Shown one piece after another: positions 48,734-60,397 of a DNA stretch of 64,000 bases. The notes beneath the pieces are model-generated. The model was not told the origin of the DNA. It searched no databases and saw only the letters and a program-made list of their open reading frames with translations. Numbering within the stretch: the stretch's first letter is position 1; each line of letters starts with the position of its first letter. The position numbers and the translations under genes were made by a program. Source of the DNA: Vezdaea acicularis (Eukaryota); NCBI GenBank assembly GCA_026025075.1, contig JAPEUI010000072.1, forward strand, positions 1-64,000, in the 5' to 3' direction.

Positions 48734-48817
48734 GCTCCGGTGGCACAATTGGTTAGCGCGTGGGGCTTTTAATGCTAAGAGACCTCAAGGTTGCGAGTTC
48801 GAGCCTCGCCCGGAGCT
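48734..48817 (+). tRNA. tRNA-Lys(UUU) with a ~10-nt intron (48772-48781)
   Basis: Acceptor stem GCTCCGG/CCGGAGC, anticodon stem TGGGG/CCTCA, loop CT-TTT-A, T arm GCGAG-TTCGAGC-CTCGC, downstream T runs; the D stem has one A-C mismatch. Confidence 0.9.
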
Positions 48818-56317: not shown

Positions 56318-56972
56318 CTAAGCTTTTGCCGAAGCCCGCACCTTGGCAAGAGATTTTCGTATTTCGAATCGAGACTATCGACATAACATTAGCTATTGTA
56401 CATCAAGGATCAGATAGCACATATATCCAAGTATCTCGTATTAGGTTGTGGCCTAAACCCCTTTAGGTTTCTAACCCAGCCCTGCACTTCGCTCACCCAA
56501 CAAGACAAAATCCTAAACATACCTGTTTCTTCAATCTCAGAACCTTGAACCTCTCGAAGTCTGTGAGCGCTTTCCTGCGATCCTGCTGTTTTCGCTTCTT
56601 TGCCCAGGAATTCTCTTCCCACTTCTTGTCCACGCCGGCTTCTTCCCACTTCGTCTTCAACGGGCCAGTGCCAACTGATCGTGGTAGCTTCTCGATTACG
56701 ATAGGTGTAAGGATGATATGGGCAAGGGGTGCGGCATGTCGAGGTACGACCCTTTTAGGATCTTTGGATGGGCCATCAACGAGAACCTAGGGCCAAATGT
56801 GTCAGTCATGGTGGGGTCGAGGGAAGTTGAATAGTACAAAACGTACACGCTTGTGGTCTATAATCTCGACTATTGTAGCCAGCTTGGTGTGATGAGCACC
56901 GCTCGTGAAGAGGACGACACGGCCGACTTCAACGTGCCTCCATTGTGAAGCTTTGACCTCAGCGTCACCCAT
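56318..56972 (-). CDS. RPL14: 60S ribosomal protein eL14 (introns 56787-56846 and 56375-56522)
   Basis: Manual splicing gives [22 protein letters not shown]...[18 protein letters not shown]...[46 protein letters not shown]; the true frame is not in the ORF track. Confidence 0.96.
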
Positions 56973-57249
56973 GTCGATGATTGCCTTTGTTCAAATTCAA
57001 CGTGAGGTCAGGCACCAAGACACCAGTGAGGGTACTGAGGAAAGAAACTTGAGAAAGTGACCGTTTCGATAGATCGTTGGGTAGAAATGTTCGACTCCGT
57101 TTACATGTATCCGCAGTCGCGCTAACCGCTTCGAGTCGAATTTCGTAGTGGGAGGACTGCTATTTTCTTGCCGAAGGTAGGGTTTCTGCGAAACGACGCT
57201 AATAGTCGGGCCACGTGATACAAGAAATACTCGCGTGTAGCTCCGGAAT

Positions 57250-57790
57250 TCGCCCTTCAAACTCAGCAGACTTTACAAACTAACCGCTTCAGCAGGTGGC
57301 TGTTCACCTGGTATGTAATTATCTCTTCCCTGTCCTTTCGTGCCTTCGATGTCTGCCTTTACGATGATGCTATAATTTGCGATTGACCTTCGACTCCGGA
57401 AACTCACGCCTGGGTTTCTCAACGGAGCGAGGGAAGTGAAATTCAATATCTTACATATTCTGATGTCCCCTTCGAAGTTCCAGTCGTAGATTTATTGTAA
57501 TTAATATCTAGGGTACTTTGCTAACACCGAAATGATTTCACAGGCCTAACACTTAAGGGATCAAATGATATTGGATTAACGGGCAACCAATGACGGTATT
57601 GTATATGCGGCTTGCGTCCACATTCGAAGAGAGTTGCAGCATGGGTACATCAACTTTGTAGTAGAGGATCTATATATGGTGGCTAGGAGGTAACTATGCC
57701 AGCTTGCTCAAAATGGCTGTCTCTTACTGTAAGCTTCTTTTCTAAAACTTCGTTTGCACCCCCTCCGTCCAATGATTATAAACACAAGCA
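57250..57790 (+). ncRNA. Putative spliced non-coding snoRNA host transcript (ends approximate)
   Basis: Donor GTATGT at 57311, branch GCTAAC at 57520, acceptor CAG at 57543; flanking exons contain no meaningful ORF. Confidence 0.65.
57361..57466 (+). ncRNA. Intronic box C/D snoRNA, U16(SNORD16)/snR87-like, with two guides
   Basis: C box ATGATGC 57364-57370; guide TAATTTGCG 57373-57381; D' TTGA 57383-57386; long internal hairpin; guide TCTTACATATT 57449-57459; D box CTGA 57460-57463; lies inside GT-AG intron 57311-57543. Confidence 0.85.
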
Positions 57791-58199
57791 CTAGATAGTA
57801 AGTGATCTCTCTACGAGAATGAGCATATCTGTACACCAAGATCACTGAGGACAATTCATAAACACCCCTTTGAAATATCGAATCAAGTCATCGATTGATA
57901 CTGACTCTTGCAGGTTTTAGGTCTCTCTCGTAGCTTCAAATTATCTCTACTATCATGAAGCAAGCATTTACCCGTGCCATACATTCCACTGTACGAGTAT
58001 ATGCTTATTTGCTCGCTCAAACAGCTGTGTGAAGGTGCTGTTCAAACTTGCAAATTCAACGCCGAGACCTACCATGCTGCCCAAACCTTGCGATGCTAAG
58101 AAGTATCGAAAGACCTCTACGCATATCTTATGCCAAGCCCCCGACCAGAGCAATTCTGCACTAGAATCTCCTCGTAGGAGCCCATGGTATCTCAGTATG

Positions 58200-59561
58200 T
58201 CAATTTGCGTTGTAATTCTGATCTTCTGCCAACGGATACTCTTTCCCAGCGTGCTCTGAAAACCAGAAGTTCCCAGAGTTGTTTCGAGTTGTAAACGGGG
58301 AAGTTAGGTTCATCTTTTCATCTACTATGCCAATCTTCCTTAGATCAAAGAGCTGTGGCACTCCGCAAATATCGTGGTGCCTATTCTCTAGGATAGCGCG
58401 AACTTTGATTGCCTTACGCTCCTCCATTGGTGCCGAATGCCTTTCCTCCCAATCACTACGCTGCTGAACCCATTGCCATAAACGTGGGTCTAGCCAATCT
58501 TGATCGTTTGGGAACCGCCTTGTGAGCCGCGCGCCAGAGAAATCTGTCTCAATAGGACGAGAGCTTGGGGAGCCTACAATCCATAGTGTCTCTTGGAGTC
58601 TGTAGGCCGTTGCTCGGCGAGCCAACACGCACAGGACATCCAGATTACAACCACCTTCCGTAAGCGCAAGCAAGATGTGGTCGATAGTGCAGCTTAGGCC
58701 AAAGTAATGAAAACTATCCAGCAAGTAAGCCACTATTTCCCCCTTGCCCTCTATGATTGCATCCTTCAACCCCTGCTCAACAATTTCTCCGTTCGTAGAT
58801 GATTCGCCGAACGGCTTGAAGATCTTCCCGTCTTTAGGTACTTGCTTTTCGAATCCTTGGGTAACATAGTGAAGCATCCAGGCCTTCTCGCGTGTCCATG
58901 AACCGTGAAGAAGGCGACTAGGAAATAGCGTGCCGCCAGCGAATTGGATGAAGTCTCTACCGCTCAATTTACATATCTCATCTCTGAGTTTGTGATATCT
59001 AGCTTGGGTAAGATAACGTCGACTGAGGACGGCAGATTGCTCCACAGAATCTCCATGGATCTCATCCCGGAACGCGTTAATACAAAAAGAGAATCTGATG
59101 TGGTCATTCGAGAGGTTTTGAAGCACCCTCTTAGATACGAAGGGAAGGTCCGCATTCATAGATTCGAGAAAGATCTTCTGTAAGATCTCAATCGGCAGCC
59201 GCTCCAGATGTGAGAGCTCCCTTTCCTCCATTTTCTCAGCTCGTCTTGCCTTCTCTGCTGATCTAGAGGGTTTTATCTTCTTCGTCGAACTTCTGCAAGA
59301 GCTATATGACGCGCTGCTCGATCGAGATGATGAAGCAAGAGGTTTCCGAGGTCGCCCCGGTCGTCGCTTGATGCTTTGCTTGTTCTCTGCGGTAACCGCA
59401 GCCAGGCCAGCAATCGACTGATCTCGATTGGTCTTGCCGCTAACTTTGATGGGCGTCAACATACTGAAAACCGTCTTCTCTCGCCCGTCTTCTCTCGCAT
59501 GACAAGGGTATGAGCCTAGTAAGAGTCTTGGTACTCGAGCGGACCTGGAGCTCCGATGCAT
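58200..59561 (-). CDS. Hypothetical protein with an AT-hook-like motif and an F-box-like motif (start may be the ATG near 59462)
   Basis: Uninterrupted ~450-codon ORF; KRRPGRPRKP; LSHLERLPIEILQKIFLESMNADLPFVSKRVLQNLS. Confidence 0.7.
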   Translation of the reverse strand: MHRSSRSARVPRLLLGSYPCHAREDGREKTVFSMLTPIKVSGKTNRDQSIAGLAAVTAENKQSIKRRPGRPRKPLASSSRSSSASYSSCRSSTKKIKPSRSAEKARRAEKMEERELSHLERLPIEILQKIFLESMNADLPFVSKRVLQNLSNDHIRFSFCINAFRDEIHGDSVEQSAVLSRRYLTQARYHKLRDEICKLSGRDFIQFAGGTLFPSRLLHGSWTREKAWMLHYVTQGFEKQVPKDGKIFKPFGESSTNGEIVEQGLKDAIIEGKGEIVAYLLDSFHYFGLSCTIDHILLALTEGGCNLDVLCVLARRATAYRLQETLWIVGSPSSRPIETDFSGARLTRRFPNDQDWLDPRLWQWVQQRSDWEERHSAPMEERKAIKVRAILENRHHDICGVPQLFDLRKIGIVDEKMNLTSPFTTRNNSGNFWFSEHAGKEYPLAEDQNYNAN

Positions 59562-60397
59562 CAAAGTCCAAAAAATATCTAAGCGAGGGCGGTGGTAGAC
59601 GGCAGAATTCTATTTTGCCAAATCGTGTCTAGCGCGAATGCCGGATGTGTAGTATTTAGATTAGAAAAAACGCCGTCACCCGGAGTAGCCTGAACTACTC
59701 GCTACGGACATCATCCGCACCTTACTGGGCCAATACGAAGGTGAGCCAGTGGTCATTGCTCGGCTGTGATTTGAAGGATTTTCGGTGCGACGTCAATTTC
59801 ATTCCATTGGCGGGGACTTACCGCGCTATACTCCTAGCGCGTGTCGCTCCGCAGCTCAAACCTTGCATTCAGTGGCTGGTGCGCTTGATTTGCGCCACAA
59901 CGCCACCGCGATCGGCCATTCGGCGTTGCGCATGACGTAGAAATCCTGATTTCCTGCGATTTCCTGCGTTTCACTGATGCCACACCCATGCCGTTCTCTC
60001 CGTTGCGGGCCCCTCCCAAGACACCTTTCGGGCGGCTGTTACGTCAGAGTTAGACAGGGAAGGGTGAAGCAAGTAGATGCGCATATAGATCCGGCATGGA
60101 TGGGGAGATTGAAGGCGCGTCGATGACGTCGAGGTAAAACGATAGCCACAGTATAAGTTAAGCGAACGTCCGCCGCTGTAAATCGCAACATTCTCACATA
60201 GTATTCAACTCGCTATCACCAGTCTACAATTGTTACTTCTCCAAGTTGAGTGAGCTGAAACGTAAAACTCTCAAATAACACTCATCGACCTGTAATCTCC
60301 TCCTCGGTTTGCAGTCCACGATACGTTGCAAGTGCAGCCTCCTCCAAATTTCAAAACATACAAACAACCATAATTTTCACCTCTTAAATCAATAGAT

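What the first reader, a model, noticed from the sequence alone, without database searches (positions are those of the whole stretch)
57361..57466. Hidden U16/snR87-like box C/D snoRNA
Seen: C box, then guide TAATTTGCG and D' box TTGA; a well-paired hairpin (CCTTCG/CGAGGG, CTCCG/CGGAG, GAAACTCA/TGGGTTTC); D box CTGA; and an external intronic stem CTTCGA(57344)/TCGAAG(57472). Known: the guide is complementary to the conserved 18S sequence CGCAAAUUA. The D+5 rule targets the first A, the site guided by yeast snR87 (Am436) and human SNORD16, whose 5' end (ATGATGTCGTAATTTGCG, recalled) has the same layout. The ORF track cannot show it.
Basis: partly seen in the sequence, partly recalled or inferred. 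Interest (0 to 1): 0.8.

Follow-up and report, generated by a model that had tools for sequence, protein, structure and literature searches.

The report
Known snR87/U16-family intronic box C/D snoRNA
This is a real but ordinary small nucleolar RNA gene, the filamentous-fungus version of yeast snR87 and human U16, which guides methylation of ribosomal RNA and is already catalogued.

Summary
Window 57360-57465 (+) matches Rfam RF01515 (Afu_514, a cloned A. fumigatus box C/D snoRNA) over its full length at 64.4 bits, against a gathering score of 39.

The guide is complementary to CGCAAAUUA in six real eukaryotic 18S sequences, and the fifth-nucleotide rule lands on the first A. Canzler et al. 2018 already place this family (CD_10 = snR87) in nearly all fungi. 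They assign it the D' target 18S-436 and a Pezizomycotina-only D-guide target in 25S.

A metagenome scan gave 114 loci, and 87 of them carry the same D guide. All 17 hairpin pairs covary. The hairpin loop, with its invariant GCC, pairs with 18S directly 5' of the guide site.

The gene lies in a 233-nt intron of an apparently non-coding host gene. That host is divergent from RPL14 and has a U24-like snoRNA in the next intron. This layout is widely conserved.

Expression and methylation could not be tested. Verdict: genuine, already known, low interest.

The parts
57360..57465 (+). Box C/D snoRNA, 106 nt (Rfam Afu_514; snR87/U16 family)
   Evidence: cmscan gives 64.4 bits against a gathering score of 39, over model positions 1-106 of 106. 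My own model R1 gives 109.1 bits.
57364..57370 (+). C box AUGAUGC (6 of 7 positions of RUGAUGA)
   Evidence: Sequence; pattern match. ATGATG is invariant in alignment A2, but only because the scan pattern required it.
57373..57381 (+). D' guide UAAUUUGCG. U57378 is the fifth nucleotide upstream of D' and faces the first A of 18S CGCAAAUUA.
   Evidence: The exact complement is present in 6 eukaryotic 18S loci, at 18S position 437-445 where computed (L012 and L043). Duplex energy -10.3 kcal/mol.
57383..57386 (+). D' box UUGA (non-consensus)
   Evidence: Sequence. van Nues 2011 lists snR87 among snoRNAs with a conserved non-consensus D'.
57387..57433 (+). Three-tier internal hairpin between D' and C'
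   Evidence: MFE -24.8 kcal/mol, z = -4.8. All 54 of 54 family members fold to one hairpin. All 17 of 17 modelled pairs show changes on both sides; 86.6% of cells are paired against 59.3% in shuffles.
57407..57412 (+). Hairpin tip CGCCUG (loop CGCC plus the first 2 nt of the 3' arm). Complementary to 18S CAGGCG, which abuts the guide site on its 5' side (extra base-pairing element).
   Evidence: GCC is invariant in A2 and was not required by any selection step. The 18S context is ggcagcaggcgCGCAAATTAccc in 6 of 6 loci, and the tip-to-18S duplex is -13.0 kcal/mol. The concept comes from van Nues 2011.
57437..57443 (+). C' box UGAAAUU (family consensus UGAUAUU, degenerate)
   Evidence: TGA at snoRNA positions 78-80 is at least 90% conserved in A2.
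57449..57459 (+). D guide UCUUACAUAUU. A57455, five nucleotides upstream of D, faces the U of LSU AAUAU*GUAAGA.
   Evidence: Matches the Rfam consensus letter for letter over CUUACAUAUUCUGA. 87 of 114 metagenome loci carry it. The 11-mer complement was found once, in the LSU of L013; duplex -11.4 kcal/mol. Literature: N. crassa CD10 26S-Um1039 and 25S-1042.
57460..57463 (+). D box CUGA
   Evidence: Sequence; alignment A2.
57311..57543 (+). Predicted host intron 1. 5' splice site GUAUGU at 57311, branch GCUAAC at 57520-57525, 3' splice site CAG ending at 57543.
   Evidence: Sequence. The same signals lie at the same distances in homologues: a 5' splice-site-like motif in 57 of 68 distinct contexts, and a branch plus 3' splice site in 62 of 68. 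The branch sits 41-64 nt after the D box in 61 of those 62. No RNA evidence.
57344..57349 (+).
   Evidence: Present in the MFE fold, but not conserved in homologues. Probably fortuitous.
57472..57477 (+). 3' arm of the external stem, UCGAAG
   Evidence: As for the 5' arm.
57767..57852 (+). Second box C/D snoRNA candidate (U24-like D guide CACCAAGAUC + ACUGA; terminal stem GUCC/GGAC). It lies in predicted intron 2 (57729-57913) of the same host gene.
   Evidence: SNORD24 scores 24.2 bits, below its gathering score of 41, E = 1.1. The motif CACCAAGATC.CTGA lies 304-541 nt downstream on the same strand in 52 loci, out of 76 that hold at least 550 nt from the C box onward.
56493..56972 (-). Divergently oriented ribosomal protein L14e gene (first and a later coding piece). 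Its start codon is 339 nt from the 5' splice site at 57311.
   Evidence: Pfam Ribosomal_L14e 61.1 bits (cut-off 30.5) on 56493-56660; KOW 20.2 bits (below its cut-off of 22.3) on 56802-56972. The same exon lies upstream on the opposite strand in 52 loci, out of 67 with at least 500 nt upstream.

Best explanation
[quoted passage not shown] It is the Pezizomycotina form (Rfam Afu_514, N. crassa CD10, snoStrip family CD_10) of yeast snR87 and human U16.

Inferred biogenesis. The RNA is made from intron 1 (57311-57543) of a short, apparently non-coding host transcript that starts head-to-head with the ribosomal protein L14e gene. After splicing and debranching, exonucleases trim the intron back to the snoRNP.

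Inferred action. The C/D and C'/D' motifs bind the core proteins, including the methyltransferase Nop1/fibrillarin (established knowledge of the class, not tested here).
- The 9-nt D' guide pairs with 18S 5'-CGCAAAUUA-3' and places the first A (yeast A436 equivalent) at the fifth position from D', for 2'-O-methylation.
- The conserved hairpin between D' and C' holds the two half-sites together. It also presents its CGCC(UG) tip to 18S GGCG/CAGGCG directly 5' of the guide duplex, which compensates for the short guide.
- The D guide (11 bp here, 12 bp in most relatives) pairs with 25S 5'-AAUAUGUAAGA-3' to direct a Pezizomycotina-specific Um (N. crassa 26S-1039/1042).

Shown here: motifs, family membership, conservation, covariation, complementarity to real rRNA sequences, and conserved intron and synteny context. 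Inferred: transcription, processing, snoRNP assembly and both methylations in this organism.
For: 1. Family match. Full-length hit to Afu_514 at 64.4 bits (gathering score 39), E = 2e-09 over 64 kb. Afu-514 was cloned 74 times as a 105-nt RNA in A. fumigatus (table row seen).

2. Targets. The D' guide complement CGCAAATTA is present in 6 of the 58 loci fetched by then (1 viral, 57 from the rDNA primer scan), all six scored as full-length eukaryotic 18S by Rfam. All 6 have the context ggcagcaggcg|CGCAAATTA|ccc. Duplex energies are -10.3 kcal/mol (D' guide), -13.0 (hairpin tip) and -11.4 (D guide with the L013 LSU).

3. Literature.
- Canzler 2018, section 27: snR87 (CD_10), D' target 18S-436, found in all fungal lineages except Microsporidia; extra D target N. 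crassa 25S-1042 in Pezizomycotina.
- Liu 2009, table: Nc CD10, 104 nt, intronic, 26S-Um1039 with 12/0 pairing through the D guide.
- van Nues 2011: snR87/U16 are orthologues with a non-consensus D' and conserved extra base-pairing.

4. Conservation. 114 metagenome loci match the C box/guide/D' pattern. 87 of the 114 also carry CTTACATAT.CTGA at the right distance, giving 53 distinct sequences. GCC in the loop and TGA of C' are conserved without having been selected for.

5. Structure. 54 of 54 sequences fold the spacer into one hairpin, 53 of 54 with at least 12 bp. On the model-fitted alignment of 69 sequences, 17 of 17 pairs show double changes. The covariation score is 0.730 against 0.250 in shuffles (0 of 500 reach it) and at most 0.150 for slid partners.

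6. Context. Splice signals sit at conserved distances: 51 of 68 distinct contexts have both, and the median distance from D box to branch is 50.5 nt. An RPL14e exon lies upstream in 52 loci and a U24-like snoRNA downstream in 52.

7. Link to the snR87/SNORD16 clan. Among 12 non-Pezizomycotina-type loci from the same scan, L087 passes SNORD16 (47.7 bits, gathering score 45), and L139 and L170 pass snR87 RF01216 (47.4 and 39.0 bits, gathering score 37). L139, L135 and L069 are hit by Afu_514 as well.
Against: - No expression evidence for this organism. No RNA run was listed and no reads could be laid.
- No genome is held for the window, so its own 18S and 25S could not be checked.
- The window sequence itself fails the Rfam SNORD16 model (14.2 bits against 45), and no snR87 row is shown.
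- D' (UUGA), C' (UGAAAUU) and the last C-box position deviate from consensus.
- There is no conserved terminal or external stem; only about 3 bp flank the boxes here.
- The 25S complement was found in only 1 of 8 aligned eukaryotic LSU sequences, in a locus of unknown taxon. The 25S target therefore rests mainly on the two papers, which are predictions; no passage I read reports an experimental mapping of that site.
- Liu 2009 assigned the D' guide of CD10 to 26S-Am3264 rather than 18S. I could not examine that site.
- The alignment used for covariation was fitted to the structure, which favours it.
Confidence: 0.93

Rival explanations
1. It is an independently transcribed snoRNA gene with its own promoter, not intron-encoded. 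The GU...CUAAC...AG signals around it are not used.
For: Jochl 2008 lists Afu-514 as 'intergenic' between Afu6g03830 and Afu6g03840, a singleton. Liu 2009 lists N. crassa U24 (CD50) as lying in an intergenic region. No RNA data here show the splice junction. 11 of 68 distinct contexts lack a 5' splice-site-like motif within 150 nt.
Against: 5' splice-site-like motifs cluster 29-53 nt upstream in 51 of the 57 contexts that have one. A branch site lies 41-64 nt downstream in 61 of 62. Chance motifs would be spread over the 150- and 200-nt search windows. Liu 2009 lists CD10 as intronic. 'Intergenic' in 2008 only means that no annotated gene was there, which is expected for a non-coding host.
Confidence: 0.07
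2. It is a decaying or silent copy (snoRNA pseudogene), and the working copy lies elsewhere in the genome.
For: The genome could not be searched for further copies. There are no expression data. This copy's D guide pairs over 11 bp rather than the 12 bp of most relatives.
Against: All four boxes, both guides, the invariant GCC loop and a fully paired hairpin are intact. The copy sits in the conserved syntenic slot between RPL14e and the U24-like snoRNA, with intact splice signals. It scores 109.1 bits on the family model, in the upper third of the 69 matches.
Confidence: 0.03
3. It is a chance constellation of short motifs inside an ordinary intron.
For: The boxes are short and partly degenerate. 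The 141-nt region is not unusually stable (z = -0.99).
Against: Covariance-model E = 2e-09. 0 of 100 shuffles contain the pattern. There are dozens of homologues with compensatory changes.
Confidence: 0.005

Closest known systems
Rfam RF01515 Afu_514 (A. fumigatus Afu-514; Jochl et al. 2008, PMC2377427)
   Same: Full-length covariance-model match, same length (105-106 nt). The C box, D' guide, D' box, D guide and D box are identical, and the hairpin is similar.
   Different: The internal hairpin stems differ in sequence, with compensating changes. Afu-514 was published as an orphan with no target and as 'intergenic'. Rfam lists it in no clan.
Neurospora crassa CD10 (Liu et al. 2009, PMC2780460) = snoStrip family CD_10 'snR87' (Canzler et al. 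2018, PMC5824354)
   Same: About 104 nt and intronic. The D guide targets a U near 26S position 1040 with 12/0 pairing, and the D' guide targets 18S-436 according to Canzler.
   Different: That CD10 equals this family is my inference, from the family number, length, location and D target; I did not see the CD10 sequence. Liu 2009 gave the D' target as 26S-Am3264. The window copy pairs over 11 bp with the LSU site, not 12.
Yeast snR87 (Rfam RF01216)
   Same: Same D' guide function (18S Am436), a non-consensus D', and short extra pairing next to the target. Same Rfam clan as SNORD16. Intermediate metagenome sequences are hit by both the snR87 and Afu_514 models.
   Different: No snR87 row appears for the window sequence at E up to 10. 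According to Canzler, the D guide and its 25S target are absent outside Pezizomycotina.
Human SNORD16 / U16 (Rfam RF00138)
   Same: Same 5' layout in the Rfam consensus: AUGAUG, 3 nt, UAAUUUGCG. Both have an internal hairpin with a GCCUG-containing tip. Named the orthologue of snR87, with 11 bp of extra pairing.
   Different: The covariance-model score is only 14.2 bits against a gathering score of 45. The host gene differs. The human target number A484 is recalled, not checked.

Membership tests
Box C/D snoRNA (class) | C box RUGAUGA near the 5' end and D box CUGA near the 3' end | tested here: met
   AUGAUGC (6 of 7) at 57364-57370; CUGA at 57460-57463.
Box C/D snoRNA (class) | Internal D' and C' boxes, each with a guide upstream of D'/D | tested here: met
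   UUGA at 57383-57386 and UGAAAUU at 57437-57443. Both are degenerate but conserved in the family.
Box C/D snoRNA (class) | Short terminal stem bringing C and D together | tested here: inconclusive
   Only about 3 bp (ACG/UGU) flank the boxes. The 6-bp external stem is present in the window, but flank pairing in 55 homologous contexts equals the mismatched control.
Box C/D snoRNA (class) | Stable RNA bound by Snu13, Nop56, Nop58 and Nop1 | not testable with these tools
   No RNA run listed. The homologue Afu-514 was cloned 74 times from A. fumigatus small RNA.
Rfam RF01515 Afu_514 | Covariance-model score at or above the gathering score (39 bits) | tested here: met
   64.4 bits, model positions 1-106 of 106.
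snoStrip CD_10 / Pezizomycotina snR87 type | D guide complementary to the 25S site (N. crassa 1039/1042) | tested here: inconclusive
   The D guide is the same as in the Rfam consensus and in 87 of 114 loci. Its 11-mer complement is found in one LSU (L013) at about the right region, and in only 1 of 8 aligned LSUs. The organism's own 25S and a named Pezizomycotina 25S were not available.
snR87 / SNORD16 clan (CL00046) | Guide upstream of D' pairing with 18S CGCAAAUUA, with the first A at the fifth position | tested here: met
   The complement is found in 6 eukaryotic 18S sequences, and U57378 faces the first A. Yeast numbering 436 is taken from Canzler 2018.
snR87 / SNORD16 clan (CL00046) | Extra base-pairing element complementary to 18S next to the target | tested here: met
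   CGCCUG (57407-57412) against 18S CAGGCG, which abuts the guide site. GCC is invariant. The concept is from van Nues 2011.
snR87 / SNORD16 clan (CL00046) | Covariance-model score at or above the gathering score of SNORD16 (45) or snR87 (37) | tested here: not met
   SNORD16 14.2 bits, E = 4.5. One lower-scoring same-clan match was left out and no snR87 row is shown. Related loci from the same scan do pass: L087 (SNORD16, 47.7), L139 and L170 (snR87, 47.4 and 39.0).
snR87 / SNORD16 clan (CL00046) | 18S A436-equivalent methylation depends on the RNA | not testable with these tools
   Needs RiboMeth-seq or primer extension in a deletion strain.

The most novel reading that the evidence does not exclude
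The most novel reading has three parts.

1. The snoRNA recognises rRNA through three elements: the D' guide, the hairpin-loop GCC element, and a lineage-specific D guide. The D guide really does install a Pezizomycotina-only 2'-O-methyl U near 25S position 1040, a site for which I saw only predictions.

2. The head-to-head unit of RPL14e with a non-coding host gene carrying the snR87-type and U24-type snoRNAs in successive introns is a conserved co-regulation module of filamentous ascomycetes. One search of the paper library found no description of it.

3. A curation point follows: Rfam Afu_514 belongs in the SNORD16/snR87 clan.
Probability: 0.5. Interest if true: 0.3.

Novelty: already known. 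Interest (0 to 1): 0.15.

Why it matters
It matters little beyond annotation. It adds one correctly placed snoRNA gene, plus a neighbouring U24-like one that Rfam misses at its threshold, to an unannotated fungal locus.

Three small points may be useful.
- The Rfam family Afu_514 is still described only as an A. fumigatus snoRNA and sits in no clan. It is the same family as snR87/SNORD16, and intermediate sequences are hit by both sets of models.
- The hairpin between D' and C' is strongly supported by covariation and displays an invariant GCC that can extend pairing to 18S. This supports the extra-base-pairing idea of van Nues et al. across many uncultured fungi.
- The RPL14e / snR87-type / U24-type arrangement and the distance of about 50 nt from D box to branch point are conserved. 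That makes this a clean example of splicing-coupled snoRNA production from a host gene that shares a promoter region with a ribosomal protein gene.

Tried and rejected
- Own genome: none is held for this window, so there was no snoscan-type test against the organism's own rRNA and no search for paralogues.
- Expression: no RNA holder was listed for 57150-58250, so read laying could not be used. This is no evidence either way.
- The genome search through a locus handle, hoping for eukaryotic control genomes. It failed once. The invited retry searched one prokaryotic assembly and 14 controls, and nothing matched. This was uninformative.
- rDNA from viral contigs with the ITS1 primer: one locus (L001), whose SSU match is only 912 nt and lacks the 9-mer target. 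Not useful.
- RNAalifold on the plain MAFFT alignment A2 recovered only the 6-pair apical stem, because the outer stems were misaligned. I replaced it with per-sequence folding and a model-fitted alignment.
- Conservation of the external or terminal stem: tested and rejected.
- A protein-coding host: the spliced exons as I joined them (57200-57310, 57544-57729, 57914-58400) give no ORF longer than 61 aa. That one lies in the arbitrarily extended last exon. Exon 2 was taken 1 nt too long in that script; the corrected intron 2 start is 57729.
- My first guess, from memory, that the D guide targets the yeast Um898 site was wrong. The complement lies further 3' in the LSU, in line with N. crassa 1039/1042.
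- PMC3596301 and PMC4138321 (passages) say nothing about snR87 or this cluster.
- Earlier findings of this scan: nothing was held.
Two were re-sent with plain words. One search was not re-sent; the paper it sought turned up through.
Full report
**Observation**

The stretch reads, from 57360: UACG-AUGAUGC-UA-UAAUUUGCG-A-UUGA, then a 47-nt hairpin, then AAG-UGAAAUU-CAAUA-UCUUACAUAUU-CUGA-UG.

The combined pattern of C box, guide and D' occurs once in the window and in 0 of 100 dinucleotide-preserving shuffles. The D'-to-C' spacer alone folds at -24.8 kcal/mol, z = -4.8. The whole 141 nt is not exceptional: z = -0.99, and 30 of 200 shuffles fold as well.

**Identity**

A gathering-threshold Rfam scan of the whole window returns two matches. 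One is a tRNA. The other is RF01515 Afu_514 at 57360-57465 (+): 64.4 bits against a gathering score of 39, E = 2e-09, model positions 1-106 of 106.

Restricting the search to 57340-57480 with permissive filters adds SNORD16 at only 14.2 bits (gathering score 45, E = 4.5). One further lower-scoring match to a family of the same clan was left out, and no snR87 row is shown.

**What is in print**

- Jochl et al. 2008 (PMC2377427; passages and table rows seen) cloned Afu-514 74 times as a 105-nt RNA. They listed it as an orphan C/D snoRNA, intergenic between Afu6g03830 and Afu6g03840.
- Liu et al. 2009 (PMC2780460; table rows seen) list N. crassa CD10. It is 104 nt and intronic, with D guide to 26S-Um1039 (12/0) and D' guide to 26S-Am3264 (13/0), and no homologue was recognised.
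- Canzler et al. 2018 (PMC5824354; section 27 read in full) define family snR87 (CD_10), with the verified D' target 18S-436. It is present in all fungal lineages except Microsporidia. In Pezizomycotina it has an added D-guide target, N. crassa 25S-1042 (ICI 1.21, mean -13.19 kcal/mol).
- van Nues et al. 2011 (PMC3116282; passages) treat snR87 and human U16 as orthologues. They note a conserved non-consensus D' box and describe conserved extra base-pairing next to the methylation site: 4 bp in yeast and 11 bp in human.

That Nc CD10 is this family is my inference from the family number, length, intron location and D target.

**Targets tested on real rRNA**

No genome is held for the window. 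I therefore fetched rDNA with the ITS1 primer (recalled) from genome contigs, which gave 57 loci, many of them eukaryotic rDNA contigs inside prokaryote assemblies.

18S. The complement of the D' guide occurs in 6 of the 58 loci fetched by then (L001 from the viral scan plus these 57): L012, L021, L036, L043, L047 and L051. Each of the six is scored by Rfam as a full-length eukaryotic 18S. In L012 and L043 the 9-mer starts at 18S position 437. The context in all six is ggcagcaggcg-CGCAAATTA-ccc.

Hairpin tip. The tip CGCCUG (57407-57412) is complementary to CAGGCG, which directly abuts the guide site. The tip-to-18S duplex is -13.0 kcal/mol and the guide duplex is -10.3 kcal/mol.

25S. The 11-mer complement of the D guide was found once, in the LSU of L013. 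It lies about 119 nt before the locus end, which Rfam maps to LSU model position 1189. That is near model position 1070, the same neighbourhood as N. crassa 1039/1042.

Only 1 of 8 aligned eukaryotic LSUs has this exact site; the others read AAATAGGTAGGA, AAATGGGTAAGA and similar. The site varies among eukaryotes, and I could not test a named Pezizomycotina 25S. The fifth-nucleotide rule gives the U of AAUAU*GUAAGA, in agreement with 'Um1039'.

**Conservation**

- 87 of the 114 also have CTTACATAT-N-CTGA at the right distance. Of the rest, 26 do not and 1 is truncated. The 87 collapse to 53 distinct sequences of 102-107 nt.
- In the alignment of these 53 with the window (A2), the C box, D' guide, D' box, D guide and D box are invariant by construction.
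- The loop GCC is invariant without having been selected for. The TGA of C' and the T before the D guide are at least 90% conserved.
- All 8 Pezizomycotina-type loci that I put through Rfam pass Afu_514 (40.6-104.5 bits).
- Among 12 loci of the other types, L087 passes SNORD16 (47.7 bits), and L139 and L170 pass snR87 RF01216 (47.4 and 39.0 bits). L139, L135 and L069 are hit by Afu_514 as well as by a clan member.

Afu_514 is therefore the same family as snR87/SNORD16, although Rfam lists it in no clan.

**Structure**

RNAalifold on the plain alignment found only the apical stem. Folding each of the 54 sequences separately gives a single hairpin in 54 of 54, with at least 12 bp in 53 of 54. 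The GCC sits in or at the loop. The median z is -2.5, and 33 of 54 fall below -2.

I built a model (R1) from 11 sequences with a 17-pair structure and searched the window plus 73 loci. That gave 69 matches at E up to 0.01; L077, L082, L100, L164 and L166 did not match. On the resulting alignment:

- 86.6% of cells are paired, against 59.3% in shuffles and at most 52.3% with slid partners.
- 17 of 17 pairs have changes on both sides.
- The covariation score is 0.730 against 0.250 (0 of 500 shuffles reach it).

The alignment was fitted to the structure, which favours it. The slid controls and the per-sequence folds point the same way.

The external stem is different. Flank pairing in 55 distinct contexts equals that of mismatched partners (p = 0.49), and 174 of 2970 mismatched pairs reach the window's -7.4 kcal/mol. 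It is probably fortuitous.

**Context**

Upstream, on the minus strand, lies a ribosomal protein L14e gene (Pfam PF01929, 61.1 bits on 56493-56660). Its first exon starts at 56972.

The snoRNA sits between a GUAUGU at 57311 and a GCUAAC branch at 57520 with CAG ending at 57543. A second predicted intron (57729-57913) holds a U24-like box C/D candidate at 57767-57852. That candidate scores 24.2 bits on SNORD24, below its gathering score of 41.

The joined exons give no ORF above 61 aa, so the host looks non-coding. This resembles the UHG-like hosts that Liu 2009 describes.

The arrangement is conserved:

- The RPL14e exon lies upstream on the opposite strand in 52 loci, out of 67 with at least 500 nt upstream. 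The U24-like motif lies 304-541 nt downstream on the same strand in 52, out of 76 with enough sequence. Duplicate loci are included in both counts.
- In 68 distinct contexts, a 5' splice-site-like motif is present in 57, at 29-53 nt in 51 of them. A branch plus 3' splice site is present in 62, with the branch 41-64 nt after the D box in 61 of them (median 50.5). Both signals are present in 51.
- This spacing matches the roughly 50-nt rule for splicing-coupled box C/D assembly. That rule is recalled from mammalian work, not checked here.

**Mechanism and confidence**

Best reading (0.93): a working, intron-encoded, double-guide box C/D snoRNA.

- Its D' guide, together with the hairpin-loop element, directs 2'-O-methylation of the 18S A equivalent to yeast A436.
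- Its D guide directs a Pezizomycotina-specific 25S Um.

What is shown here is sequence, family membership, conservation, covariation and complementarity. Transcription, processing, protein binding and both methylations are inferred.

The rivals are weak: independent transcription (0.07), a silent copy (0.03) and chance (under 0.01).

**Novelty**

Already known. The family is in Rfam, it was cloned in two fungi, and it was placed as snR87 with both targets in 2018.

The modest additions are the covariation support for the hairpin, the invariant loop GCC across many uncultured fungi, the conserved RPL14e/snR87-type/U24-type unit, and the missing Rfam clan link. One search of the paper library found no description of that unit.

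Noticed in passing
window 57767-57852 (+), in predicted intron 57729-57913: A second box C/D snoRNA candidate. It has a U24-type D guide (CACCAAGAUC + ACUGA), a 4-bp terminal stem GUCC/GGAC and a conserved upstream element CUAGAUAGUAA before an NUGA box. SNORD24 scores only 24.2 bits (gathering score 41), so a routine Rfam scan misses it. Its D-guide motif lies downstream of the snR87-type snoRNA in 52 metagenome loci. The target of its D' guide was not worked out.
   Followed up: partly
window 56493-56972 (-): A ribosomal protein L14e gene is divergent from the snoRNA host gene, with 339 nt between its start codon and the host's first 5' splice site. The same head-to-head arrangement is seen in 52 metagenome loci. 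A shared promoter region is possible.
   Followed up: partly
Rfam families RF01515, RF01216, RF00138; loci L139, L135, L069: Rfam lists Afu_514 in no clan, yet the same loci are hit by Afu_514 and by snR87 or SNORD16 (clan CL00046). Afu_514 looks like it belongs in that clan.
   Followed up: partly
window 48734-48817 (+): tRNA-Lys (anticodon UUU) with an 11-nt insertion after the anticodon loop region, that is, an intron-containing eukaryotic tRNA gene.
   Followed up: no
window 58200-59564 (-): A 454-aa ORF immediately downstream of the snoRNA host gene, on the opposite strand, has no Pfam match at E up to 0.01.
   Followed up: no
alignment A1 (L013, L051, L043, L056, L019, L045, L030, L010): The LSU site complementary to the D guide varies among eukaryotes (AAATATGTAAGA, AAATAGGTAGGA, AAATGGGTAAGA and others), while its flanks are invariant. 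This fits a lineage-specific guide.
   Followed up: partly
L002-L058 (genome contigs); L001 (viral contigs): Several prokaryote assemblies and MAGs hold full eukaryotic rDNA contigs, for example L012, L036, L043, L047 and L051, with 18S scores of 1771-1793 bits. This looks like contamination. One 'viral' contig (L001) carries a 912-nt SSU that spans the whole eukaryotic SSU model.
   Followed up: no
L069, L079, L082, L090, L095, L097, L100, L102, L159, L161, L163, L172: A distinct group of snR87/U16-type loci has a clear terminal stem (AGCU...AGCU), loop AUGCCUGCG and a different D-side sequence (…ACUAUUACUGA). It is nearer to SNORD16 than to Afu_514 in L069, the only member of the group scanned against Rfam (34.5 against 33.1 bits). 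Its lineage is unknown.
   Followed up: no
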